Positions 4,149-36,364 of a DNA stretch of 36,364 nucleotides are shown here, one piece after another. The notes below the pieces were generated by a model. That model was not told the DNA's origin. It ran no database searches and worked only from the letters and a program-made list of their open reading frames with translations. The stretch is from a virus (taxonomy: Duplodnaviria; Heunggongvirae; Uroviricota; Caudoviricetes). Numbering within the stretch: the stretch's first letter is position 1; each line of letters begins with the position of its first letter. The stretch lies in IMG/VR virus record IMGVR_UViG_2711768060_000011; one strand, 5' to 3'. Both the position numbers and the translations under genes were made by a program.

Positions 4149-5227
4149 CAGAACGGGTCCTCCTGTACTCTGGCTTTTTTCTTTTTCCGCGCGCCGGGGG
4201 CTTCGGGTTCAGGCAGATAAGCATCAGGTGGGCCGACACGGATTTCCGTCAGGGTGCCGTTCTGGTCCTGAGTAAACGTGACTTCCGAGACAAGCAGTTC
4301 GGTATTGTCGAAACCACAGACCGGATCAAAGACAATCACCCGCTGGTTGGGCTGCCACAGCGTACCGTTACCCTGTCGCCAGCCCTGCACCACATAGGTG
4401 GTTTCATCCGTCCGCGCCGCCCGTTGTCGGGCTTCAAAGTCAGCACGGGCAATACAGCCTGCCCCCGTGGCCTGCCCTGTCTGCCTGATATACATCGGAC
4501 GGTAACGGGAAATAAATGCGTCCTCTGTGCGGGCCCGCAGCGCGGTGGTGGTGGCCTCACCGAAATCATCGTCGTTTCCGGCACGCTGCCCCGCCACCTG
4601 GTAAACAGAAAACCGCTCCCGGATACTCTTCTCCGTATCGCAGGAAAGGATGTTTTCCCCAAGTACCAGCGCAGTATGTGCCCGCGTTGAGCCAATACCG
4701 CCAATCACCAGCCTGCCGTGCGGGTCGTCGTAAGCCAGTGCCTGCTGCTGACCGAGTATTTTGTTGATTACCTCAATCACCGTTTCACCGTGATCAGGCT
4801 GGACGTCAGGAATAACACCCGACGGCGCACCGTTGTTCACCACCTCAATGCCGAAAGGCGCAGCAAGCGCCTGCGCAATCTGTACCAGCGATCGTCCGTT
4901 AAACTGTGTCGGTTTGGCTGCACAGTCAATCAGGTCAGCGGTCAGACTGCGTCCGGCAATACCGGTGCTGACCGAACGGGCATCGTAACGAACGGGCGTC
5001 GCCTCCACCCAGCCGGTGATCACCAGCTCATCACCAATCAGCACCTCCACTTTTGAACCGTTTTTAATGCGCGGCTGAAGCGTGGTGATACCCTCATCTC
5101 CCGGCCACTGGCGGGTGATCTCCACACTGAAATCCCGCGCCAGCCGTTCAATACCGGCACCGATGCGCACCGATGTCCAGCCATTCCACTCCCGGCCATT
5201 TACCCGTAGCGTGACATTGTCGTTCAT
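4148..5227 (-). CDS. baseplate hub protein (phage late control D / Mu P family)
   Basis: 359-aa ORF after the DNA circulation gene, as in Mu N-P; length typical of gpD/Mu P. Confidence 0.65.
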   Translation of the reverse strand: MNDNVTLRVNGREWNGWTSVRIGAGIERLARDFSVEITRQWPGDEGITTLQPRIKNGSKVEVLIGDELVITGWVEATPVRYDARSVSTGIAGRSLTADLIDCAAKPTQFNGRSLVQIAQALAAPFGIEVVNNGAPSGVIPDVQPDHGETVIEVINKILGQQQALAYDDPHGRLVIGGIGSTRAHTALVLGENILSCDTEKSIRERFSVYQVAGQRAGNDDDFGEATTTALRARTEDAFISRYRPMYIRQTGQATGAGCIARADFEARQRAARTDETTYVVQGWRQGNGTLWQPNQRVIVFDPVCGFDNTELLVSEVTFTQDQNGTLTEIRVGPPDAYLPEPEAPGARKKKKARVQEDPF

Positions 5228-6552
5228 TGCACTGGCACCTTCAGAGGGATCACCGGCACAAATCCGGGATGCGTAATGGCATTACGCCGGATAATGTCCG
5301 CGTCACGCGCCGCGTTATCAAACCAGGTCGCCGCCAGCACCAGCGCGGGTAAAACCTCATCCGGTGTGCGCTGAATAATCCGTGCAGACTGTTCAAGGCG
5401 CGTGTTGATATCCGCATTCAGATCCGCTTTCACCCGGCGCAGCGCCAGAAACAGCGCATCACTGGTTGTTCGGGACAACTCCTTATCAATTGCCGTATTC
5501 AGTGTGTCGCGAATGTCAGTCAGTTCTTCCCACGTCGGCAGGTCAACCGTGTTTTTCACCGCCGGTGCATTGTTCAGTGCCGGATGCGTGACGGAAGGCC
5601 AGCCAGTGCTCTGCGCAGGTGTTGTTGCCTGCCCCACTGTGGCATTCTGCATCACCGCGGAAGTTGTTGGCGCAGGCAATCGGGTGACGGCATACGCCGC
5701 TTCGCTGATTGCGGTCGTACGAAGGGTGCTGGCAACCACGTTACGCTGCTGCGTCGCCGTAGCGGTGGTTTTACTGTCCGTTTTCCAGACGCCGCGCGGT
5801 TGCAGATCGCTGCCGAGGCTGACACCGGAAAGCGTTTTGATCATGGTGACCAGGTCGCTGGCGTTACCATAAAGGCGTTTCCCGGTACGCCACATTTTCT
5901 GCACCTGCTCAACGAAATTTTTGCCTGACGATGGCGGCGGCAGAAGTACCGAGATATCCCCCTGCAACAGCCTGGCGGCATCCGATACGGCAGAATCCAC
6001 CACTTTCATCGCATCAGAAACATACCCAAGCATTGTGCTGGCATTACCGACGACGTCGTTCTGCACAAAATCTGCCACGCCATCGATACTGAAACCACTG
6101 AAGCTGTCACTGATGCAGTCATCCAGTGCAGAACAGGATGACATCAGCGTCTGCGCCGTCGCCGCACCTGAAGTGGGGTAAGAGAGTTCTCCCGCTTCGA
6201 CAAACTTCAGGTCAAAGCGGACAATACGCCCTTCACTCTTCGATGTGCTGACCCGAACTTCCCCATCAACACAGACTTTCAGCTCACCGTAAGTCGGATG
6301 GACAAGCGTGCCGGGACCGGGTTTATTCAGCGCGTCAATCAGGCGATCGCGCTGGTCAAAGCAGTCATCTCCCACCACATAAGCTGTGATGGACGGGCGG
6401 AAAGTGATTTTCCCCAGGTCTTCGGTATAGGGTTTGTCGCGGTTCGGGTATTCGTGCGTTTCCACACGACGACCGGTTCCCGCACTTTCTTCTTCAACCT
6501 TAAACGGCACACCGCGAAATGACGCGTCCTGAAGTCTGTCTTTCCACGTCAT
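5224..6552 (-). CDS. DNA circulation protein (Mu N-like); alternative upstream start at 6594
   Basis: ORF 5224..6594; the Met at 6552 has a GGAG Shine-Dalgarno 5 nt upstream, whereas the first ATG has none and would place a hairpin plus T-run inside the coding sequence. Confidence 0.6.
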   Translation of the reverse strand: MTWKDRLQDASFRGVPFKVEEESAGTGRRVETHEYPNRDKPYTEDLGKITFRPSITAYVVGDDCFDQRDRLIDALNKPGPGTLVHPTYGELKVCVDGEVRVSTSKSEGRIVRFDLKFVEAGELSYPTSGAATAQTLMSSCSALDDCISDSFSGFSIDGVADFVQNDVVGNASTMLGYVSDAMKVVDSAVSDAARLLQGDISVLLPPPSSGKNFVEQVQKMWRTGKRLYGNASDLVTMIKTLSGVSLGSDLQPRGVWKTDSKTTATATQQRNVVASTLRTTAISEAAYAVTRLPAPTTSAVMQNATVGQATTPAQSTGWPSVTHPALNNAPAVKNTVDLPTWEELTDIRDTLNTAIDKELSRTTSDALFLALRRVKADLNADINTRLEQSARIIQRTPDEVLPALVLAATWFDNAARDADIIRRNAITHPGFVPVIPLKVPVQ

Positions 6553-22175: not shown

Positions 22176-22355
22176 CTACTGTTCTTCTATTTTTTTACTG
22201 GAAATCAATCCACTGGTCATTTCATAACCGTTTGTGTGGCCACAGTAAGGGCAAATAATTGGCTCTTTATCCTTTCCTCCTGGATAGCCTCCACTGTGCT
22301 CCCAATAAATAAACTCTTTATTGCAACTTTCATTACTACATCTTGTATTGCTCAT
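22176..22355 (-). CDS. small zinc-ribbon protein (59 aa), below the ORF-track size cutoff
   Basis: ATG at 22355 preceded by GGGAG; translation MSNTRCSNESCNKEFIYWEHSGGYPGGKDKEPIICPYCGHTNGYEMTSGLISSKKIEEQ contains CxxxxC...CxxC; between the Q terminator and the holin. Confidence 0.4.
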   Translation of the reverse strand: MSNTRCSNESCNKEFIYWEHSGGYPGGKDKEPIICPYCGHTNGYEMTSGLISSKKIEEQ

Positions 22356-22425: not shown

Positions 22426-22451
22426 CAAAAAAAACCCGCTCGATGGCGGGT
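22426..22451 (-). terminator. tR'-like Rho-independent terminator downstream of Q
   Basis: On the minus strand, a 6-bp GC-rich stem (ACCCGC/GCGGGT) followed by a 9-nt U-run, about 110 nt downstream of the Q stop. Confidence 0.6.
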
Positions 22452-22490
22452 TCAAGAAGATTATCAACGGTAGACACACAAAGCCCATCG

Positions 22491-22505
22491 TTAGGATAAT
22501 CCTAA
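22491..22505. promoter_or_regulatory. perfect palindrome TTAGGATAATCCTAA in the candidate late promoter/qut region
   Basis: 15-bp palindrome between the Q stop and the tR'-like terminator; overlaps a possible -35 TTGCAT / -10 TAGGAT pair on the minus strand. Confidence 0.3.
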
Positions 22506-22558
22506 CCATATTTTTTGAAAAATGCAAGAATCATGTCGCCATCTTCGGCGAAAATCAT

Positions 22559-23311
22559 TTATCTTGTCACTCTCCTCAATTGTGTCTCAGCATATGCTTC
22601 TTCCTGCCAGCACTTTGTAACCAGTTTATCAATGACATCTGCATATCCTTTGTACCACTGATAATCCGTCAGGTCTGGTACCAGCTTCTGGACATGATGC
22701 CGCGCCAGTGTGGTTGGTAAACGGCTAAACCGGTTTCCATTGCAACGCCCACAAATCTTATAAACAGGCGTGCCATGAAGCCGGGTCCTTTTTTCATCCA
22801 GGACAATACCTTTACCCTTACACCCTCTGCACGCTGTGCTGACTTCTCCCTTACCATGACAATGCTGACATAGTTCCTTTACCCACTCTTCCTTGATAAC
22901 AGATTCCCCGCTTCTGGATTGTTTCACCACCTCGCGCAATACATTATGAAATCCAGTACCAGCACAATGCTCACAGCGAGCCTTACTTGCCGCAGACCTG
23001 GAATAATCAGCAAAGGCAAAATTCACAAGGTAAGGGATGATCTGTAACCGGATTTCTTCACTCAATTTGTTCAATGTCGGGTTATCCAGTGCCATCGCGT
23101 AATTGAGCAGACCTTCAATCGCAAACTGAGGATCCTGAACGCCAACTTTTGCCAGGAATAAGGTAAACCCAAGCGGTGCTTTCGACTGCACCATCCCCTG
23201 TGCAGCCATCACATCCGTAATCGTTAAACCACCTGAGCCTGTCGCCGGTGCGTCATCACTCAATTTTGGAGATTTTGGGGAGTAATATTTTGGTAAGGCT
23301 TCAAGGTTCAT
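22559..23311 (-). CDS. Q: late-gene antiterminator Q (lambda Q family)
   Basis: 250-aa ORF with YSPKSPKLSD...TDVMAAQGM N-terminus, ADYSRSAA...RCEHCAGTG and CGRCNG zinc motifs, and ...VTR C-terminus resembling lambda Q; followed by a terminator. Confidence 0.8.
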   Translation of the reverse strand: MNLEALPKYYSPKSPKLSDDAPATGSGGLTITDVMAAQGMVQSKAPLGFTLFLAKVGVQDPQFAIEGLLNYAMALDNPTLNKLSEEIRLQIIPYLVNFAFADYSRSAASKARCEHCAGTGFHNVLREVVKQSRSGESVIKEEWVKELCQHCHGKGEVSTACRGCKGKGIVLDEKRTRLHGTPVYKICGRCNGNRFSRLPTTLARHHVQKLVPDLTDYQWYKGYADVIDKLVTKCWQEEAYAETQLRRVTR

Positions 23312-23324
23312 GCTCGTTCTCCAC

Positions 23325-24320
23325 TTACGCCAGTACGCCTATTGCCAGCGCACGATCGATAAAACGAAATATCAGCTCCAACTGGGAGCCATACATCTCT
23401 TCAAATGCCACGGTATCCGCATGCAGCTCGTCGTGATGCTTTCTGCACAAAGGCAACACAAAGAGGTCATGCGCTTTTGTACCCATTCCCCCCTGACCGT
23501 GGCCTATCAGGTGGTGGGGATCATCAGCAAGCTTTCCACAACATGCACACGGCTGTGTCTTAACCCAGCGCGTGTACTTTTCATTAACCCAGCGGCGACG
23601 TTTTGGGCGTAACATAAAAGACTCCGGCGACTCCGGATCCACTTTCAGCGCCAGCACCTTTTTCGCTTTATCCTGGATAATGCTGGTGGCAGGAACCGAA
23701 GGCACAAGGTCACTTTCCCGGGTGACAGACGGCACAACAGGCTTCGGTAATCTCAGTGCCTTACGGGCTGCACTTTCCGGTAAGGCATCCGCCAGGTCAT
23801 TACGAATCAGCCACCAGCACAGTTCCGGCATTGTCACAACGTGACTATCATCAAAACCGAGATCCCGACGCACAACAGACAACACCCAACGGGCACAGTT
23901 ATCCGTTGCCATTGATTCCAGCCGTTCCGTGAACTGATCGCGCAGCTGGTTATCGCAGTGCCAGCAGAGACGGATTGCGCCCGGAGCGTGCCGCATTGTG
24001 GTCATGTTCTCGCTGTGCCAGTCGGAATGAGGCCACTGGCAGCCTTTTTCACGAAGTAACCAGCTTTCAAGACATTCCACCCCACCAGCACGACGGATCA
24101 CTGCCTCATTGCGGAACACGGCCCGAACGGCAGGATCATCCGCCAGCGGTTGTGATGCCGCGGGAACGGCACCACTGGCGAAAGATGAATAACGTTCCGG
24201 CTCAGGCTCCAGCAGGACACGCCCCTGCATAAACAGGGGCATCAGCTCTGAACCGGGCCTGAACAATACGATCCCCATACGCGGGGCAATTTCAGGGGTC
24301 AGTAGTGCTCTCACAGTCAC
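23325..24320 (-). CDS. DUF968-type protein with C-terminal HNH-like zinc motif
   Basis: 331-aa ORF; C-terminal CACCGK...HHLIGHGQGG...CRKHHDELH motif; position upstream of Q as in Qin/Rac-type prophages. Confidence 0.55.
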   Translation of the reverse strand: MTVRALLTPEIAPRMGIVLFRPGSELMPLFMQGRVLLEPEPERYSSFASGAVPAASQPLADDPAVRAVFRNEAVIRRAGGVECLESWLLREKGCQWPHSDWHSENMTTMRHAPGAIRLCWHCDNQLRDQFTERLESMATDNCARWVLSVVRRDLGFDDSHVVTMPELCWWLIRNDLADALPESAARKALRLPKPVVPSVTRESDLVPSVPATSIIQDKAKKVLALKVDPESPESFMLRPKRRRWVNEKYTRWVKTQPCACCGKLADDPHHLIGHGQGGMGTKAHDLFVLPLCRKHHDELHADTVAFEEMYGSQLELIFRFIDRALAIGVLA

Positions 24321-24321
24321 C

Positions 24322-25164
24322 TCAATGAACGGTATCGAGCAACTTTAACAGCTCGGGGAATCGGGATTCGAAGAAATGCGGCTGCGTCTCGCGCGGATTT
24401 GCGGGACTGGTGATGTTCTTGCCGAACATGCAGCCTTTCGCCGTCAGCGACCAGAATTTTTTGATGTTGTTAATCGCGGTACGGCTGTATCGTTCGCGTT
24501 GTTCAACGATCCCCAGCTTCACCATCTGGTGATATGCCTGATTAGCCGTCAGGCGGATACCATACTGTTTCAGCAGTGCACTCAGCGACAGCGTGGGGCG
24601 ACTTGAGCCATCAGGCGCGTCAGCAGGAGCATCAATGGCATAGCGCGGTGCCAGATTCGGTAAGCCAACAGCCTCCTGGAGTTTCTGACAGGCACCAAGC
24701 ACTGATGAGTTAGACAGGTTTAATTCCCGGCGCATAAAGTCCAGCAGGATCACACCAGCCTGCATCTTGTCAGCAGCCTGCCCAGATAATTTTTCCGGTG
24801 CGCTGGTTACCATATCGAAAGTACGGATCACCTTCAGATGGAATGACGAGCTGATCCACATTGCATAGGCATACACCAGTTCTTTGCAGACATACGTCCC
24901 CTGGTTATTTCCGCCATTAATGACGCTAACTGGTTGATTTTGTTCCATAGGCGGAATTCCACCCTCGGTGAAAAGTTGTTCAATCAATTCACAGGTTTGC
25001 TTATTGGAGAGCCAGTATTTCGGGCGGTTTTTTTGTTCTCCCCCGGCTGCCCTGTGCAGATCGTTCAGGCTGTAACGCCCATAAGCATCACGACGAACTT
25101 CAATACCATCAATGACCATCAGATTATTCATACTTCGTTTCTCCTCTTGATCAGGCGGCTGCAC
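24322..25164 (-). CDS. KilA-N domain protein
   Basis: 280-aa ORF; N-terminal ...IDGIEVRRDAYGRYSLNDLHRAAGGEQKNRPKYWL... resembles KilA-N/Bro-N domains. Confidence 0.55.
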   Translation of the reverse strand: MQPPDQEEKRSMNNLMVIDGIEVRRDAYGRYSLNDLHRAAGGEQKNRPKYWLSNKQTCELIEQLFTEGGIPPMEQNQPVSVINGGNNQGTYVCKELVYAYAMWISSSFHLKVIRTFDMVTSAPEKLSGQAADKMQAGVILLDFMRRELNLSNSSVLGACQKLQEAVGLPNLAPRYAIDAPADAPDGSSRPTLSLSALLKQYGIRLTANQAYHQMVKLGIVEQRERYSRTAINNIKKFWSLTAKGCMFGKNITSPANPRETQPHFFESRFPELLKLLDTVH

Positions 25165-25540
25165 CCGCCGTTTTCTCGTACTTACTGATAGTGATCTCGA
25201 CCTTCCCTTCCGGGATAACCGGTCCCCACTCCACCAGCATTCTTTTCACCTGACTGTCGTCTTCCCACACACCCGCGTGGGTCAGGGCGTCAAACAGCGC
25301 CTTGTTATAGTTGTCCAGATCGCGGATCCGGTTATCCGGAGGAAACAACACGATCTCCACTGAAGCAGGTGCCGACGTTGGTTTCGGAAGACGACGTAAC
25401 TGCTCAACTATTGCTGCGCACGCCGCGCTCTGGAATTTGCGCCCCGCCGCGCTTATCAGGCTTTTACCAGCAAACGCCCCTTTGTTAGGGTGTCGCCAGT
25501 ACGTATTCACGCTGGGCGGGAAAGGCAGGATCAGTTTCAT
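25151..25540 (-). CDS. rusA: Holliday junction resolvase RusA
   Basis: 129-aa ORF with PPSVNTYWRH and RDLDNYNKALFDALTHAGVWEDDSQV motifs characteristic of RusA. Confidence 0.85.
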   Translation of the reverse strand: MKLILPFPPSVNTYWRHPNKGAFAGKSLISAAGRKFQSAACAAIVEQLRRLPKPTSAPASVEIVLFPPDNRIRDLDNYNKALFDALTHAGVWEDDSQVKRMLVEWGPVIPEGKVEITISKYEKTAGAAA

Positions 25541-25863
25541 ACTTTCAGGCCTCTCTCATGTAACCAGTGGGTTGCACGCAGCCTGGCGTTTTCCTCACCG
25601 GCAAGCAGTGAGCGGATAATCCAGACAGCCTCGCTGTCGTCGTCCTTCACCGCGGTATGAAGCGTTATCCCCCGGGCCACGCCACGCTTTATCGTGATGA
25701 CGCCTTTTTTCTCCAGTGCGCGAAGATGCTCCACCGCTGCATTCACTGAACGGTATCCCAGCATGGTTGCCACCTCCTGATTGGTTGGCGGGAAGCCTCG
25801 TTCTTTCTGGTAAGAAATCAGCATATCCAGCACCTGCTGCTGGCATTGAGTTAATGTCGTCAT
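25537..25863 (-). CDS. LexA N-terminal DNA-binding-domain protein (no peptidase domain)
   Basis: 108-aa ORF MTTLTQCQQQVLDMLISYQKERGFPPTNQEVATMLGYRSVNAAVEHLRALEKKGVITIKRGVARGITL aligns along the LexA N-terminal winged helix (LTARQQEVFDLI...[46 protein letters not shown]). Confidence 0.7.
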   Translation of the reverse strand: MTTLTQCQQQVLDMLISYQKERGFPPTNQEVATMLGYRSVNAAVEHLRALEKKGVITIKRGVARGITLHTAVKDDDSEAVWIIRSLLAGEENARLRATHWLHERGLKV

Positions 25864-26513
25864 GCCACCATCTCCCTGACCAGTTTTTCCGCCTGCTGGC
25901 GAACCTGCGCCAGAAAGGCCTCACCACATGCCTCAAGTTCATCGCGCCCGATGTAGCTGATTGCCGGTCCCTTCCAGGTCTTGTCAAAAACAGCAATAGC
26001 ACCAGAGAAAAAAGCTCCTGTCGGTATCTGCTTCTCGTCTTTCGGGATAAACCAGACAGGCAGTTCAAAACCAATACGCCCGCGAATAAAAGCAATATGA
26101 TCTGCATCTTCCGGCCACCACACTTCGCTGGTGGCAGCTTTGATCAGGAAAACATAGCGCCCGCCCTTATCACGCATGGCACTGGCATGTTTCATGATGT
26201 AACGCATGCCGGTGATGTATTGCCCCTCATGCTGACTGGCGCGGCTGTATGGAGGATTACCAAAGGCAGCACCTTTAAGCTCCGCAAGGCGTTCTGACCA
26301 GTCATGCGCCAGCGCGTTGTCTTCCGCCGTGTAATACGCGGCACATTTGGCGTTATCACCGTCAGTGAACAGATCCAGAACAAACGGGCCAAACAGGGTG
26401 TTAATTCCCCAGAAAATGTTGTCCGGCGTGCGCCACTGATCACCCACTTCCTTCAGTTCATGGGCTGGTTTGTTCCGCAGTTCCACCAGCTCCTGGCAAT
26501 ATTTATTACTCAT
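25860..26513 (-). CDS. DNA N6-adenine methyltransferase (phage Dam-like orphan methylase)
   Basis: NPPY catalytic motif (AAFGNPPYSRA); start chosen at the ATG that overlaps the upstream TAA stop by 1 nt (TAATG); the ORF track extends 11 codons further. Confidence 0.75.
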   Translation of the reverse strand: MSNKYCQELVELRNKPAHELKEVGDQWRTPDNIFWGINTLFGPFVLDLFTDGDNAKCAAYYTAEDNALAHDWSERLAELKGAAFGNPPYSRASQHEGQYITGMRYIMKHASAMRDKGGRYVFLIKAATSEVWWPEDADHIAFIRGRIGFELPVWFIPKDEKQIPTGAFFSGAIAVFDKTWKGPAISYIGRDELEACGEAFLAQVRQQAEKLVREMVA

Positions 26514-29253: not shown

Positions 29254-29940
29254 GTGAAAACACTGGCAGAACGATTAAAGATAGGTAGAGAGAAAGCTGG
29301 CATGAGCCAAGCTCAACTAGCTGAAAAAATTGGACTTTCACAACAATCTGTAGCCAAAATAGAGAATGGCGAAACTCTACAACCGCGCAAAATTAAAGAA
29401 ATTGCAAAAGTTTTAGGTGTATCACAAAAGTGGTTACAACTTGGTATTGAAGACAACGCATCCATACCTGATCTTGTTGTAAAAGAAGCAGAAAGCACCG
29501 CATTAGACCCCGATATTTTCGTAAACATTCCTGTTTTAGATGTCGAGTTATCGGCAGGTAACGGATGTCTGGCTGAAATAGTTGAATCAGCTATTGACTG
29601 GTTTCCGTTAAGAAGAGCAGATTTGAGAAAATCTGGCGTATGTGCATCTAATGCCAAGATCGTACAAATATGGGGGAACAGTTTATTACCGGTTCTCAAT
29701 AATGGAGATCTTGTTGCCGTTGATATTTCTCAAACCGTTCCTATTCGTGATGGCGATCTTTATGCCGTACGAGATGGTGTATTGCTAAGGGTTAAAATAC
29801 TTATCAACTTACCTGACGGTGGCTTGATTCTTAGAAGCTTCAACAAAGATGAGTACCCAGATGAAATACTCACCTTTGAAGATAGACGAGCCAGAATTCA
29901 TGTTATAGGTAGGGTATTCTGGTCATCGCGAACTTGGTAA
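29254..29940 (+). CDS. cI-like prophage repressor (HTH_XRE plus S24 LexA-type autopeptidase); GTG start
   Basis: N-terminal HTH (MSQAQLAEKIGLSQQSVAKIENGE), Ala-Gly cleavage site (LSAGNG), C-terminal S24-like Ser (GNSLLP) and Lys (LLRVKIL); AGAGGG Shine-Dalgarno before GTG at 29254. Confidence 0.9.
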   Translation: MKTLAERLKIGREKAGMSQAQLAEKIGLSQQSVAKIENGETLQPRKIKEIAKVLGVSQKWLQLGIEDNASIPDLVVKEAESTALDPDIFVNIPVLDVELSAGNGCLAEIVESAIDWFPLRRADLRKSGVCASNAKIVQIWGNSLLPVLNNGDLVAVDISQTVPIRDGDLYAVRDGVLLRVKILINLPDGGLILRSFNKDEYPDEILTFEDRRARIHVIGRVFWSSRTW

Positions 29941-30942
29941 TGCATCGAAAAGCATTTCTTCAGAAATAATTTTAAGTTTTGCACCATTATCATCCCTATA
30001 AGATATAGCCTTTTCGATCTTCCTTCCGTGACTAGAGAATTTCCAATCACGGGAGGAAAGCGTCCCAATTACTAAAAAATCCAACTTTTGAGTAATTCCA
30101 CTACTGATGTTCCCACCAGCATTTTTAATCAAATTTTCAACTACGGCTCTCTTTCCTGCAACAAAAGTGCCTGTAAGACAATAGGTTTTACCCTCTAACT
30201 CTATCGAAGCCCCTACATCAATAGGCAGCCTGGTCGCCAAACCATCCACCACCCCACTTTCCAAGTCACATCCTGTGAAGTCTACTAATGCCTTATGTAG
30301 AGTTAAACTCTCATCTTCAGTAATAACACCATCTTTAAGAATTTCCTTTACAAGTGCATAAAGTTTTTTTCCTGGGTAGTTGTTCTTCAAAGCTCCATTT
30401 TGCTCAAGCCACCAATTAAGATATCTTATTTCTTCTTGAGTTAAGTTCCGATCAGCAATTAATCCTTTACATAGTCCATTAAGTAAATGGACATCTACAT
30501 CCTTGGAGTAAAAATCAATTTCAGGGATATCAAGAATTTCCCTCTGTATTTGGAGAAGGCTATTTTTAAGGTCATCACGTTCTTCTGATGTGATTATTCC
30601 ATCCGCAAGAATATCCGACACCCGAGCAGATAGACTTTTTATAACTCCATTATTGATAATCTGCTTTGCTTCAAGTAACCATGTATCTAAGTAAAGAACC
30701 TCCTCTTCACGGACAACTCCATCTGCAATGATTCCATCAATGATGCTAATCAAGTTAGCAAATAACTTGTCCCGGTTTCGTGTAATTAAAAGCGTAAAGC
30801 GCGTCTTCCATACAACCTCCTTTTTTTGATAATCCTTGCGCTCCTTGGCTACTCGTTCAAACCACATAAAGTTGTTGGCAACATTCAAAACCACAACTAA
30901 ATTACAACTTAAAGGTGTTAAGACAACGAACAGGCAGGACAC
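29923..30942 (-). CDS. repeat-containing protein with C-terminal BRCT domain; likely true start at ATG 30867
   Basis: C-terminal ~90 aa (KTYCLTGTFVAGKRAVVENLIKNAGGNISSGITQKLDFLVIGT...) resembles the LigA-type BRCT domain; four ~45-aa repeats sharing ...L.DG.IT.EE...L...L; the first codon at 30942 is GTG and the N-terminal extension overlaps operator-like motifs. Confidence 0.6.
   Translation of the reverse strand: MSCLFVVLTPLSCNLVVVLNVANNFMWFERVAKERKDYQKKEVVWKTRFTLLITRNRDKLFANLISIIDGIIADGVVREEEVLYLDTWLLEAKQIINNGVIKSLSARVSDILADGIITSEERDDLKNSLLQIQREILDIPEIDFYSKDVDVHLLNGLCKGLIADRNLTQEEIRYLNWWLEQNGALKNNYPGKKLYALVKEILKDGVITEDESLTLHKALVDFTGCDLESGVVDGLATRLPIDVGASIELEGKTYCLTGTFVAGKRAVVENLIKNAGGNISSGITQKLDFLVIGTLSSRDWKFSSHGRKIEKAISYRDDNGAKLKIISEEMLFDALPSSR
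30866..30930. promoter_or_regulatory. OL-like operator cluster upstream of the plus-strand early operon
   Basis: Same motif as the right operator region: AAAGTTGTTGG (30868-30878), CCACAACTAA and ATTACAACTT (30891-30910). Confidence 0.5.
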
Positions 30943-31325: not shown

Positions 31326-31604
31326 GGAAGCAGACGGAAGTAAGCATGCGCTTTGTTCAAATTTGCAGACAAATATATTTGCGTCAACACCAGCACTGTT
31401 AGCAATGGAAAAAGTTTGATCAAGGATTTGTTGGCAGTTCATTGTGCTTTTGAGGATATATCCCTCTGGAATCAGTCTGCAGCAGCTATCGTCAGACTCT
31501 TTGATTGTTTTCTGGTACAGAAAGTTAAGCATTAATTCTTCAAATTTTTTGGTCTGTTCGGCTGTTGCTTCAAACAGACGAACGTGAACATAAAACTGGT
31601 TCAT
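31263..31604 (-). CDS. hypothetical protein (antisense to the early operon; coding status uncertain)
   Basis: ORF 31263..31640 with internal ATG at 31604 preceded by AGGAA; AT-rich; 3' end overlaps the plus-strand 102-aa ORF by 63 nt. Confidence 0.25.
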   Translation of the reverse strand: MNQFYVHVRLFEATAEQTKKFEELMLNFLYQKTIKESDDSCCRLIPEGYILKSTMNCQQILDQTFSIANSAGVDANIFVCKFEQSACLLPSASLVGNDFVHHDLTPKPIKLDS

Positions 31605-35311: not shown

Positions 35312-36364
35312 ATGAATACAAATGTAGGGCAGATCACATTAATTGATCTAATTTCAATGCTTGAGAGAAAAGAACTAATAATTAACAAGGATTATCAGCG
35401 CGGAAATGGAATATGGCCACCATTTGCAAAGAGTTATTTCATAGACACTATTCTAGAAAATTATCCTTTCCCCAAAATATATTTATATCAAGCATTTGAC
35501 AGGACAAACGAAAGGCCAATTAAAGAAATTGTTGATGGCCAGCAACGAGTAACAACTCTCGTTGATTTTTATAAAAACAAATTTGCACTTACTTCGGCAT
35601 CGAAGAAGTATTCTGGCATGTATTTTAATGATTTGCCCGATGATGCAAAAAGATGTTTTATTAGTTATCAAGTTGAAACATCCACAGTTTATTCAGCAAG
35701 CAGGGCTGAATTACTCGAAATGTTTAGACGAATGAATGCTTATACATCTCCACTAACATCAGCAGAAAAACGGCATGCTACTTTTCAAGGTGCATTTAAG
35801 TGGTATATCGTTGAAAAAGCAGATACCCACGCTGAGCTTTTAGAGATTTATAATATATTGTCACCCAAAATATTAGCCAGAATGGGTGATGCAGAATTTA
35901 TCTCAGATATGGCAATACTCATTGATAGAGGGCTTTGTTCAAAGTCGGCACCTGCAACCGAAGCTATTTATAAAAAATACGATGATGATTTTCCTTTAGA
36001 GAATATCTATAACGAGAGAATTGATTATTTCTTCAATTTATTGGCGGAAGATTTTTCCGAATTACGTAATTCATTTATGATGAAATCGTATGTTGTTCAC
36101 TCATTATTTTGTGCTATTACCGCATTAAAATTTGGTTTCCCCGGAAGTGATGAACTTGAAAATGAACTCGGTTTCACGGCTAACCCAAACTTTGATGTAA
36201 ATCCTTCCCGTGTAATTCCGATTCTCTTAGAGATGGCTGATGCCCATGAAATTCAGGACGAAGATGGCCCTTATGCAGCCTATGTAACAAGTTGTTTATC
36301 ATCAACAACCAAGCTACCACAACGAACCACGCGCACAAAAGAACTGATTAAAGCATTCTTATGA
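35312..36364 (+). CDS. DUF262 (GmrSD N-terminal / ParB-like) domain protein, stand-alone
   Basis: 350-aa AT-rich ORF with AGGAGA Shine-Dalgarno; N-terminal DYQRGNGIW and DGQQR motifs diagnostic of DUF262; no HNH/DUF1524 motif seen in the C-terminal half; stop is the last codon of the window. Confidence 0.75.
   Translation: MNTNVGQITLIDLISMLERKELIINKDYQRGNGIWPPFAKSYFIDTILENYPFPKIYLYQAFDRTNERPIKEIVDGQQRVTTLVDFYKNKFALTSASKKYSGMYFNDLPDDAKRCFISYQVETSTVYSASRAELLEMFRRMNAYTSPLTSAEKRHATFQGAFKWYIVEKADTHAELLEIYNILSPKILARMGDAEFISDMAILIDRGLCSKSAPATEAIYKKYDDDFPLENIYNERIDYFFNLLAEDFSELRNSFMMKSYVVHSLFCAITALKFGFPGSDELENELGFTANPNFDVNPSRVIPILLEMADAHEIQDEDGPYAAYVTSCLSSTTKLPQRTTRTKELIKAFL

What the first reader, a model, noticed from the sequence alone, without database searches (positions are those of the whole stretch)
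25537..25863. Phage-encoded LexA DNA-binding domain without the autopeptidase domain
The 108-aa protein aligns along the LexA N-terminal winged helix but lacks the Ala-Gly site and S24 domain, so it would bind LexA-type operators without being cleavable by activated RecA. Embedded in the early operon and coupled to the methylase and RusA, it could hold selected SOS boxes repressed during induction or regulate phage genes. No canonical CTGT-N8-ACAG box was spotted by eye in the window.
Basis: partly seen in the sequence, partly recalled or inferred. Interest (0 to 1): 0.55.

Follow-up and report, generated by a model that had tools for sequence, protein, structure and literature searches.

The report
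Prophage-encoded uncleavable LexA DNA-binding protein
A common E. coli prophage gene encodes just the DNA-binding half of the SOS repressor LexA plus a short helical tail; it most likely re-occupies SOS operators when the host's own LexA has been destroyed, but its function has never been tested.

Summary
Window 25537-25863 (-) encodes a 108-aa protein whose residues 1-68 are a LexA winged helix: Pfam PF01726 E=3e-19, ungapped 50% identity to E. coli LexA, AlphaFold model 1.0 A from LexA in 3JSO. There is no S24 peptidase domain. One detail is wrong. An Ala-Gly (88-89) does align with LexA Ala84-Gly85, but it is not conserved in relatives and lies in a predicted helix.

The gene is already annotated as "LexA family transcriptional regulator" in roughly a third of complete E. 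coli genomes, in SfV, SfII and mEp460, and in Stx2a/Stx2c phages. I found no functional study. It is under strong purifying selection (pN/pS 0.06).

It keeps four of LexA's five DNA-contact residues (S39, N41, A42, E45; E44 is Val). The prophage itself has no SOS box.

New comparative evidence: in a 40-45%-identical branch with the same C-terminal tail, 27 of 29 loci have a canonical SOS-box promoter (17-30 bits) upstream of the gene, usually with dinI or recA between them, and some with a further box and a umuD'-like ORF upstream.

Best reading (about 0.5): a RecA-insensitive LexA surrogate that represses SOS boxes. The closest known relative is GIL01 gp6, a truncated LexA that activates a late promoter.

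The parts
25537..25863 (-). Gene for the 108-aa LexA-like protein (identical to WP_000210174.1, 'LexA family transcriptional regulator'); stop codon at 25537-25539
   Evidence: ORF list; Pfam, NCBIfam and PHROG hits; identical annotated gene in E. coli O91 RM7190; pN/pS 0.064 among 52 alleles
25660..25863 (-). Residues 1-68: LexA-type winged helix-turn-helix DNA-binding domain
   Evidence: PF01726 E=3e-19; ungapped alignment to E. coli LexA 2-69; model rmsd 1.0 A to 3jso_B; pN/pS 0.017 for residues 1-70
25708..25749 (-). Residues 39-52: recognition helix SVNAAVEHLRALEK (LexA: [14 protein letters not shown]). S39, N41, A42 and E45 are retained; E44 is Val
   Evidence: Alignment; helix H40-52 in the model; list of DNA-contact residues from PMC3091678
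25660..25698 (-). Residues 56-68: beta-hairpin wing ITIKRGVARGITL, with G61, R64, G65 and I66 identical to LexA
   Evidence: Strands E56-58 and E66-68; ungapped alignment to LexA; R64, G65 and I66 invariant and G61 nearly invariant within the family; role of the wing in fixing operator spacing from PMC8565304
25540..25644 (-). Residues 74-108: family-specific C-terminal helical hairpin (H74-87, H93-103) with a conserved hydrophobic stripe (I82, I83, L86, L87, A93, A97, W100, L101). Dimerisation or partner binding is inferred, not shown
   Evidence: Model; conservation across 40-88% identical homologues; no Pfam domain; pN/pS 0.21
25597..25602 (-). Ala88-Gly89 (GCC GGT), aligned to LexA Ala84-Gly85 but not conserved in the family. 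Probably a relic of the LexA cleavage region
   Evidence: HMMER alignment; homologue sequences; sequence read
25860..25863 (-). ATGA overlap: methylase stop codon and LexA-like start codon
   Evidence: Sequence; ORF coordinates
25537..25540 (-). ATGA overlap: LexA-like stop codon and rusA start codon
   Evidence: Sequence; ORF coordinates
25860..26513 (-). Upstream neighbour: phage N-6-adenine methyltransferase. This is context only and is not a constant partner
   Evidence: PGAP annotation of the identical locus; absent upstream of the gene in about 20 close relatives
25151..25540 (-). Downstream neighbour: RusA Holliday-junction resolvase, followed by KilA-N (24322-25164), DUF968/HNH (23325-24320) and antiterminator Q (22559-23311). 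Together they form the early-right (nin-like) operon
   Evidence: Annotation; Pfam DUF968 hit; conserved gene order LexA-like ... DUF968 - Q in nearly all related loci; no sigma-70-like promoter on the minus strand and no strong terminator between the cro-like gene and Q

Best explanation
The gene encodes a RecA-insensitive stand-in for LexA. Its winged helix keeps LexA's DNA-reading residues. A 35-residue helical hairpin replaces the S24 dimerisation and autocleavage domain.

In this e14/SfV-like prophage the gene lies in the early-right operon, in the order cro-like, replication, PerC, dam, lexA-like, rusA, kilA-N, DUF968, Q. It is therefore made only after the CI-type repressor has been inactivated, or after infection (inferred from gene order and the lack of a promoter of its own).

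At that time the host LexA has been cleaved. The phage protein would bind CTGT-N8-ACAG operators, and RecA* cannot remove it. It would re-repress LexA-controlled promoters. These include host SOS genes and the SOS-box-controlled accessory genes that related or co-resident prophages carry: dinI, recA, a umuD'-like gene, a kilA-N variant and a DNA methylase.

Shown here: the fold, the absence of a peptidase, conservation of the DNA-contact residues, purifying selection, operon position, and the physical association of family members with SOS boxes. Inferred: DNA specificity, repression, dimerisation through the tail, and the benefit to the phage.
For: 1. The domain is a LexA DNA-binding domain by sequence and by predicted structure.

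2. LexA contact residues S39, N41, A42 and E45 and wing residues G61, R64, G65 and I66 are retained (PMC3091678). S39, R64, G65 and I66 are invariant in the family and N41, H46, G54 and G61 nearly so. The wing is credited with fixing LexA's rigid operator spacing (PMC8565304).

3. pN/pS is 0.017 for residues 1-70, so the binding surface is maintained.

4. The LexA N-terminal domain alone retains SOS-box binding and repression and has to be removed by ClpXP (PMC10584840). This protein does not end in the VAA degron that cleavage creates.

5. In the 40-45%-identical branch with the same C-terminal motif, 27 of 29 loci carry a 17-30-bit canonical SOS box 524-1537 nt upstream of the gene, on the same strand. 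Shuffled sequence gave 12 boxes of 15 bits or more in 2.44 Mb. In L096 the layout is an intrinsic terminator, then a TTGACC -35 element, then the box TACTGTTTATTTATACAGTA overlapping the -10 element, then dinI (Pfam E=8e-22), orf101 and lexA-like, with no strong terminator in between. Other loci have recA (E=3e-130) in place of dinI, or a further box in front of a UmuD'-like ORF.

6. 42 of 80 close relatives carry strong SOS boxes elsewhere in the early or late regulatory region, including one in the rusA-kilA-N intergenic region 440 bp downstream of the gene.

7. This prophage has no SOS box, which fits a target outside the phage.
Against: No binding or expression data exist.

Glu44 is replaced by Val, or by A, T, F or L, throughout the family. 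One branch also changes Glu45 to Ser. Specificity may therefore have shifted, as it did in GIL01 gp6.

An isolated LexA N-terminal domain binds weakly, and dimerisation through the tail is only a guess from a monomer model (pTM 0.57).

The SOS boxes next to dinI and recA are expected for host LexA control. The lexA-like gene could lie downstream of them by mosaic accident, and the 29 loci are related phages rather than independent events.

The window's own branch and the intermediate branch have no box upstream of the gene.

No control set of lambdoid phages lacking the gene was scanned, apart from 13.5 kb of lambda, which gave one marginal 15-bit hit.
Confidence: 0.5

Rival explanations
1. 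It is a phage-specific transcription factor whose specificity has drifted away from the SOS box. Like GIL01 gp6, it would act on a phage promoter, as activator or repressor, to time early or late gene expression.
For: Precedent: gp6 is a truncated LexA homologue (44% identical to its host's LexA DNA-binding domain). It binds GaCACAnnTGTGaC and activates the late promoter P3 (PMC6182141). Stand-alone LexA DNA-binding-domain proteins are common in phages (BFVD hits). Glu44 is lost across the family and Glu45 is Ser in one branch. The gene always lies a few genes upstream of DUF968 and Q. A 23-bp palindrome overlaps the putative late promoter just downstream of Q (22487-22509).
Against: No gp6-type site is present beyond chance. 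CTGT/ACAG dyads or direct repeats are not convincingly over-represented at any spacing from 0 to 20 (a few spacings reach 3-4 copies, no more than 84 tests would give), and none lies in a regulatory region. No intergenic space or promoter lies next to the gene. The palindrome at the late promoter contains no CTGT. The recognition helix is much closer to LexA than gp6 is: S39, N41, A42, A43, E45, H46 and L47 are all identical.
Confidence: 0.2
2. It works mainly through protein contacts rather than as an independent repressor. It might dock beside host LexA on operators through wing contacts. Alternatively its tail might bind LexA, RecA or a neighbouring phage protein, modulating LexA cleavage or occupancy as GIL01 gp7 does.
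For: The conserved C-terminal hairpin has no assigned function. A relic 'LLAGE' aligns with the LexA cleavage loop. The distant branch is always flanked by two conserved unknown ORFs, orf101 and orf67, and often by DinI, a RecA modulator. gp7 shows that phages do modulate LexA by binding it (PMC6182141).
Against: The Ala-Gly is not conserved and is predicted helical. The strongest constraint is on the DNA-binding domain, not the tail (pN/pS 0.017 against 0.21). There is no evidence for any interaction, and orf101 and orf67 are absent from the window's phage.
Confidence: 0.15
3. It is a decaying fragment of a captured lexA gene with no function, carried along in the nin-like region.
For: It looks like a lexA gene truncated just after the cleavage site. 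Frameshifted copies exist in databases (P0021, P0036, P0055, P0067, P0117).
Against: The median pN/pS is 0.064 among 52 alleles. The length is constant at 106-108 aa across Escherichia, Salmonella, Citrobacter and Hafnia. The tail is conserved down to 40% identity. The gene is present in roughly 1,700-2,300 of 5,426 complete E. coli genomes.
Confidence: 0.03

Closest known systems
E. coli LexA repressor (N-terminal domain, residues 1-84; PDB 1LEA, 3JSO)
   Same: It has the same winged-helix fold (rmsd 1.0 A) and about 50% identity over residues 2-69 without gaps. The contact residues S39, N41, A42 and E45 and the wing residues G61, R64, G65 and I66 are the same. An acidic linker and an 'AGE' relic follow the domain.
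   Different: It has no S24 peptidase and dimerisation domain and so no self-cleavage. Glu44 is Val. A 35-residue helical hairpin replaces the C-terminal domain. It scores below the TIGR00498 cutoff. It is encoded in a prophage early operon rather than an autoregulated chromosomal gene.
GIL01 (Bacillus thuringiensis tectivirus) gp6
   Same: It is also a phage-encoded truncated LexA homologue consisting essentially of the DNA-binding domain, made from an early promoter after SOS induction (PMC6182141).
   Different: gp6 has a changed specificity (GaCACAnnTGTGaC, dependent on Lys38) and activates the late promoter. It has only a short C-terminal extension that forms the wing. The protein here keeps LexA's recognition residues and carries an extra helical hairpin. 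It sits in a lambdoid phage that uses Q antitermination for late genes, and no gp6-type site is present.
Post-cleavage LexA N-terminal fragment (LexA 1-84)
   Same: It is a free LexA DNA-binding domain, which still binds SOS boxes and represses targets (PMC10584840).
   Different: The cellular fragment is cleared by ClpXP after cleavage (PMC10584840). That its new C-terminus (…VAA) serves as the ClpX tag is from my own knowledge (Neher et al. 2003, not held). The phage protein ends …ERGLKV and has a structured tail, so it would be expected to persist (inference).
PHROG 362 / NCBI 'LexA family transcriptional regulator' (SfV Orf42, SfII, mEp460, cdtI and Stx2c-phage homologues)
   Same: It is this same family. 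It matches PHROG 362 over its full length (E=6e-59), and the phage proteins are 94-99% identical.
   Different: Nothing differs structurally. The window allele has Trp81 where most relatives have Gly. These entries are annotations only, and I found no experimental study.

Membership tests
LexA repressor proper (TIGR00498 equivalog) | N-terminal LexA winged-helix DNA-binding domain (PF01726) | tested here: met
   PF01726 E=3e-19, 69 bits against a 23.7 cutoff, full model length; rmsd 1.0 A to 3jso
LexA repressor proper (TIGR00498 equivalog) | C-terminal S24 peptidase and dimerisation domain with the catalytic Ser119/Lys156 | tested here: not met
   The protein ends at residue 108. There is no PF00717 hit, only TIGR00498 positions 1-91 of 203 are matched, and the next gene is rusA, overlapping by 4 nt
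LexA repressor proper (TIGR00498 equivalog) | Conserved Ala-Gly scissile bond in an exposed cleavage loop | tested here: not met
   A literal Ala88-Gly89 aligns with Ala84-Gly85, but it is VG, AN, ER, TR, DD, SG and others in homologues and is predicted helical
LexA repressor proper (TIGR00498 equivalog) | Whole-protein score above the curated cutoff | tested here: not met
   69.6 bits against a cutoff of 110.95
LexA repressor proper (TIGR00498 equivalog) | Binds CTGT-N8-ACAG SOS boxes and represses transcription | not testable with these tools
   Support is indirect only: contact residues retained and family members located downstream of SOS-box promoters
PHROG 362 / lambdoid 'LexA DNA-binding-domain protein' family (SfV Orf42-like) | Full-length match, including the C-terminal hairpin, to the family profile | tested here: met
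   PHROG 362 E=6e-59 over residues 1-108 against profile positions 1-106 of 106; 94-99% identical to SfV, SfII, mEp460, cdtI and Stx2c phage proteins
PHROG 362 / lambdoid 'LexA DNA-binding-domain protein' family (SfV Orf42-like) | Position in the early-right (nin-like) operon upstream of DUF968 and Q | tested here: met
   Window gene order; the same order in mEp390, the Klebsiella phage and nearly all IMG/VR loci
GIL01 gp6-type truncated-LexA late activators | [quoted passage not shown] | tested here: met
   Here there is an additional 35-residue helical tail
GIL01 gp6-type truncated-LexA late activators | Cognate palindrome GaCACAnnTGTGaC overlapping the -35 element of the late promoter | tested here: not met
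   One 2-mismatch match was found, inside the DUF968 coding sequence, against 1.44 expected by chance
GIL01 gp6-type truncated-LexA late activators | Activates transcription of late genes | not testable with these tools
   The phage has a Q antiterminator and a terminator downstream of Q for late control

The most novel reading that the evidence does not exclude
The family is a prophage-borne device that terminates or overrides the SOS response. In one branch it is itself SOS-induced, together with DinI or RecA, from a very strong SOS box. It then re-closes all SOS operators, including its own, regardless of RecA*, giving a self-limiting pulse. In the e14/SfV/Stx-phage branch it is expressed from the early-right operon. 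There it silences host SOS functions and the LexA-controlled antirepressor-like or accessory genes of co-resident prophages. The effect would be inter-prophage competition and possibly modulation of SOS-dependent Shiga-toxin phage induction.
Probability: 0.25. Interest if true: 0.75.

Novelty: new variant of a known kind. Interest (0 to 1): 0.5.

Why it matters
The SOS response controls mutagenesis, persistence, prophage induction and Shiga-toxin release. A RecA-proof LexA surrogate would be an unrecognised layer of SOS control acting in trans on the whole regulon. The gene is present in about a third of sequenced E. coli and in Stx2a/Stx2c phages, so its reach would be wide. It would also be a second, mechanistically opposite, example of phages re-using the LexA DNA-binding domain, with GIL01 gp6 as the activator. 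The hypothesis can be tested directly with gel shifts and SOS reporters.

Tried and rejected
1. I scanned the window and the rest of the prophage with a canonical SOS-box PWM. Nothing rose above chance. The single exact CTGT-N8-ACAG at 31562-31577 lies inside ymfI, scores poorly on the PWM, and about 0.4-0.55 such matches are expected by chance.

2. I tested CTGT/ACAG half-sites at spacings 0-20, in inverted and direct arrangements. No convincing enrichment remained after allowing for 84 tests, and none of the sites was in a regulatory region.

3. The top PWM hit, at 22196, lies inside a small zinc-ribbon-like ORF and was rejected.

4. No GIL01 gp6-type operator was found.

5. DNA upstream of the gene in the distant branch looked conserved. 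It turned out to be the end of orf101 plus a Shine-Dalgarno sequence, not an operator.

6. The idea that Ala88-Gly89 is a functional trans-cleavage site was rejected because it is not conserved and is predicted helical.

7. The single genome-contig scan was swamped by genuine lexA genes of Halomonas and other taxa. It gave no taxonomic information on the family, so I used it only as a positive control for the PWM.

8. The afdb50 fold library was unavailable.

9. Zhang et al. 2010 (the LexA-DNA structure) and Neher et al. 2003 (ClpXP degradation) are not in the held library, so secondary citations were used.

10. Literature searches for a functional study of this protein found none.

11. I did not run a proper control set of lambdoid phages that lack the gene. 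Only 13.5 kb of lambda was scanned.

Full report
**What is there.** Window 25537-25863 (minus strand) is an ATG-initiated ORF of 108 codons. Its start overlaps the stop of the upstream N-6-adenine methyltransferase gene by ATGA. Its stop overlaps the start of rusA in the same way.

- Pfam places residues 1-65 on the full LexA_DNA_bind model (PF01726, E=3e-19) and finds no Peptidase_S24 domain.
- The NCBI lexA equivalog TIGR00498 matches only positions 1-91 of 203 and scores 69.6 bits against a cutoff of 110.95.
- PHROG 362 ('transcriptional repressor') matches end to end (E=6e-59).
- phmmer against PDB aligns residues 2-69 without a gap to E. coli LexA 2-69 (1lea, 3jso; E about 1e-15).
- An AlphaFold2 model (mean pLDDT 82.6) has three helices and a two-stranded wing, then a low-confidence linker (residues 71-75) and two further helices, 74-87 and 93-103.
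- Foldseek puts the first 68 residues 1.0 A from LexA in the LexA-operator crystal structure, at 50% identity.

**One correction.** The protein has Ala88-Gly89, and HMMER aligns 'DDDSEAVWIIRSLLAGE' with LexA 'EEEEGLPLVGRVAAGE', that is with Ala84-Gly85. This reads as the relic of a lexA gene truncated just after its cleavage loop. The pair is VG, AN, ER, TR, DD, SG, AC or AE in homologues and lies in a predicted helix, so it is not a maintained cleavage site. Without the Ser/Lys domain the protein cannot cleave itself in any case.

**Where it sits.** The window is an intact e14/SfV-like lambdoid prophage integrated at icd. A stretch around the gene is 100% identical to E. coli O91 RM7190, where the gene is WP_000210174.1, 'LexA family transcriptional regulator'. 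The minus-strand gene order is:

- cro-like, ymfL, DUF4222, a replication-type HTH protein, PerC/YfdN, dam;
- lexA-like;
- rusA, kilA-N, DUF968/HNH, antiterminator Q, then the lysis genes.

I found no sigma-70-like promoter on that strand and no strong terminator between the immunity region and Q. The gene is therefore presumably a delayed-early gene transcribed from the early-right promoter (inference).

**How common, and is it known?** A 601-bp probe across the gene hits 2,288 of 5,426 complete E. coli genomes, 1,682 of them at 80% coverage or more. Proteins 94-99% identical occur in SfV (Orf42), SfII, SfIV, mEp460, cdtI, fifteen Stx2c phages, Stx2a_WGPS2/1447 and an Stx2k phage. They are annotated variously as LexA-like, LexA DNA-binding-domain protein, or even 'LexA repressor and protease'. 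Five literature searches found no functional study.

The nearest studied case is GIL01 gp6. It is a truncated LexA homologue that has acquired a new operator (GaCACAnnTGTGaC) and activates the late promoter (PMC6182141). BFVD shows many other stand-alone LexA DNA-binding-domain proteins in phages. The existence of the gene is thus not new, but its function is open.

**Is it functional?** Among 52 distinct alleles, the median pN/pS is 0.064. It is 0.017 for residues 1-70 and 0.21 for the tail. The length of 106-108 aa and the tail motif (hydrophobic at 82, 83, 86, 87; A93, A97, W/F100, L101) persist down to 40% identity. It is not a decaying fragment.

**What would it bind?** The residues reported to contact DNA in E. 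coli LexA are Ser39, Asn41, Ala42, Glu44 and Glu45 (PMC3091678). The phage protein has S39, N41, A42, V44 and E45.

- The wing residues G61, R64, G65 and I66 are identical to LexA.
- Within the family S39, R64, G65 and I66 are invariant, and N41, H46, G54 and G61 nearly so.
- LexA's rigid operator spacing is attributed to contacts made by the wing (PMC8565304).
- The free LexA N-terminal domain still binds SOS boxes and represses unless ClpXP removes it (PMC10584840).

These facts make SOS-box binding the default expectation. The family-wide loss of Glu44 is a caveat. It could tune affinity or specificity.

**Targets in this phage.** There are none. I built a 20-mer PWM from 27 E. coli SOS boxes listed from memory; those boxes score 13-27 bits on it.

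- The window maximum is 10.7 bits, below the mean shuffle maximum of 11.6, and the hit lies inside a small ORF.
- The last 3 kb of the prophage also has none.
- Other half-site spacings and a gp6-type site give nothing above chance.

If the protein reads SOS boxes, its targets here lie on the host chromosome or on other prophages.

**New comparative evidence.** Scanning the 128 related loci fetched from IMG/VR and GenBank (1.38 Mb) gave 123 hits of 12 bits or more, most of them canonical boxes scoring 20-30 bits. Shuffled sequence gave 12 hits of 15 bits or more in 2.44 Mb. As a positive control, the PWM finds a box within 300 nt upstream of 36 of 80 genuine lexA genes, and only 9 boxes elsewhere in 474 kb.

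*Distant branch.* One branch of the family is 40-45% identical, has the same C-terminal motif, and comes from Klebsiella-type lambdoid prophages such as ST846-OXA48phi9.1. In 27 of its 29 loci a box lies 524-1537 nt upstream of the gene on the same strand.

- In L096 the layout is a strong intrinsic terminator, then a TTGACC -35 element, then the box TACTGTTTATTTATACAGTA overlapping the -10 element. After that come dinI (Pfam E=8e-22), orf101, lexA-like, orf67, DUF968 and Q, with no strong terminator in between.
- Other loci have recA (E=3e-130) with two boxes in place of dinI.
- Some have a further box in front of a 109-aa ORF that begins like UmuD' (GFPSPAxDY) but lacks the catalytic serine motif.
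- In this branch the gene is therefore very probably SOS-inducible itself, and it sits among SOS genes.

*Close branch.* In the window's own branch, 42 of 80 loci carry strong boxes at three recurrent places:

- inside the linker-coding part of one CI-type repressor allele;
- in the rusA/kilA-N intergenic region of a kilA-N variant, 440 bp downstream of the gene;
- over the start codon of an N6/N4 methylase between Q and the holin.

The window's phage has different alleles at all three places.

**Interpretation.** The most economical reading is a RecA-proof LexA surrogate. In the distant branch it would close a negative-feedback loop on an SOS-induced operon that also encodes the RecA inhibitor DinI. 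In the window's branch it would be produced during lytic development and re-repress LexA-controlled promoters in trans.

I put this at about 0.5. Specificity, dimerisation and repression are all inferred. The SOS boxes would be expected next to dinI and recA anyway. The 29 loci are related phages, not independent events. No phylogenetically controlled comparison with phages lacking the gene was made.

The rivals are:

- a gp6-like phage-specific regulator with drifted specificity (0.2);
- a modulator acting through protein contacts via its tail (0.15);
- a functionless relic (0.03, contradicted by the selection analysis).

**Verdict.** The gene is a widespread, already annotated member of the phage 'LexA DNA-binding domain only' kind. 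It differs from the one studied example, gp6, in three ways:

- it retains LexA's recognition residues;
- it has a conserved helical tail;
- in one branch it is wired into SOS-box operons.

It is of moderate interest and can be tested directly.

Noticed in passing
L003:1546-1565 (and about 25 other close-relative loci, e.g. L002, L013, L044, L065, L115): A very strong canonical SOS box (TACTGTTTTTACATACAGTA, 23-27 bits) lies inside the coding sequence of a CI-type XRE+S24 repressor. It sits at the linker between the HTH and the peptidase domain (codons about 70-76). It could mark a LexA-controlled internal promoter or a roadblock. The window's own cI allele (29254-29940) lacks it.
   Followed up: partly
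L003:11000-11019; L109:7943; L120:9259 (about 25 loci): An SOS box (22-24 bits) overlaps the first codons (MKNTVK...) of a 350-aa N6/N4 DNA methyltransferase inserted between Q and the holin. The CTGT...CAG pattern is kept even though the protein sequence varies. In the window a small zinc-ribbon-like ORF (22176-22355, minus strand) occupies this position.
   Followed up: partly
L038:6765-6784 (also L020, L051, L055, L059): An SOS box (TACTGTATTTATGAACAGTG, 22 bits) lies in the rusA/kilA-N intergenic region, about 100 nt upstream of a variant KilA-N gene. This suggests a LexA-controlled antirepressor-like gene directly downstream of the lexA-like/rusA pair. In the window kilA-N overlaps rusA and there is no box.
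   Followed up: partly
L106:3877-4206 (also L097, L100, L103, L104, L107, L110, L117): A 109-aa ORF preceded by a 27-30-bit SOS box starts with the UmuD' N-terminus (GFPSPAKDYAEQ; BLASTP E=1e-7 against UmuD residues 25-63). It has no Pfam S24 hit and lacks the GDSM serine motif, so it appears to be a degenerate, pre-'cleaved' UmuD'-like protein.
   Followed up: partly
L120-L127 (match at about 5001-5477): A third branch has the same LexA DNA-binding domain (60% identical over residues 1-68, with Glu45 changed to Ser). It is fused to an unrelated C-terminal region of about 90 aa with no Pfam hit, in the same genomic slot just before rusA. The domain appears to be combined with interchangeable C-terminal modules.
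   Followed up: no
Proteins P0131, P0132, P0148, P0151, P0152, P0154, P0159 and others: The representative search returned proteins of 140-350 aa with two matched stretches, that is tandem LexA DNA-binding domains in one chain. These may be single-chain pseudo-dimers.
   Followed up: no
window 22487-22509: A near-perfect 23-bp palindrome (ATGGTTAGGATTATCCTAACGAT on the minus strand) overlaps the -10 element of a putative late promoter (TTGCAT-17-TAGGAT). It lies 50 nt downstream of Q and upstream of a strong terminator (22432-22453). It is probably part of the Q-utilisation site and has no CTGT half-sites.
   Followed up: no
window 31554-31577: CTGT-N4-CTGT-N8-ACAG, the only exact CTGT-N8-ACAG in the window, lies inside the 5' end of ymfI (minus strand). 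Its PWM score is poor and the count matches chance expectation.
   Followed up: yes
window 25621-25623 (codon 81): The window allele has Trp81 at the start of the first tail helix, where nearly all close relatives have Gly (EAVGIIR).
   Followed up: no
window 29923-30942 (minus) and 35312-36364 (plus): Accessory cargo is present. A BRCT-domain protein gene converges on the cI-like gene, and a DUF262 gene (a family often linked to defence nucleases) lies just beyond int at the icd attachment site. mcrA and pinE lie at the other prophage end (L129:1085-2579).
   Followed up: no
L129:17728-17747 (E. coli O91 RM7190 chromosome, between minC and ycgJ): A 22.4-bit SOS-box-like site (ACCTGTTTAAATATCCAGTA) lies in host DNA outside the prophage. 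I noted it only as an incidental sign that the PWM picks up chromosomal sites.
   Followed up: no
L096:4589-4894 and L084:5405-5608: Two conserved ORFs of unknown function (orf101 and orf67, no Pfam hits) always bracket the lexA-like gene in the distant branch. They are absent from the window's phage.
   Followed up: no
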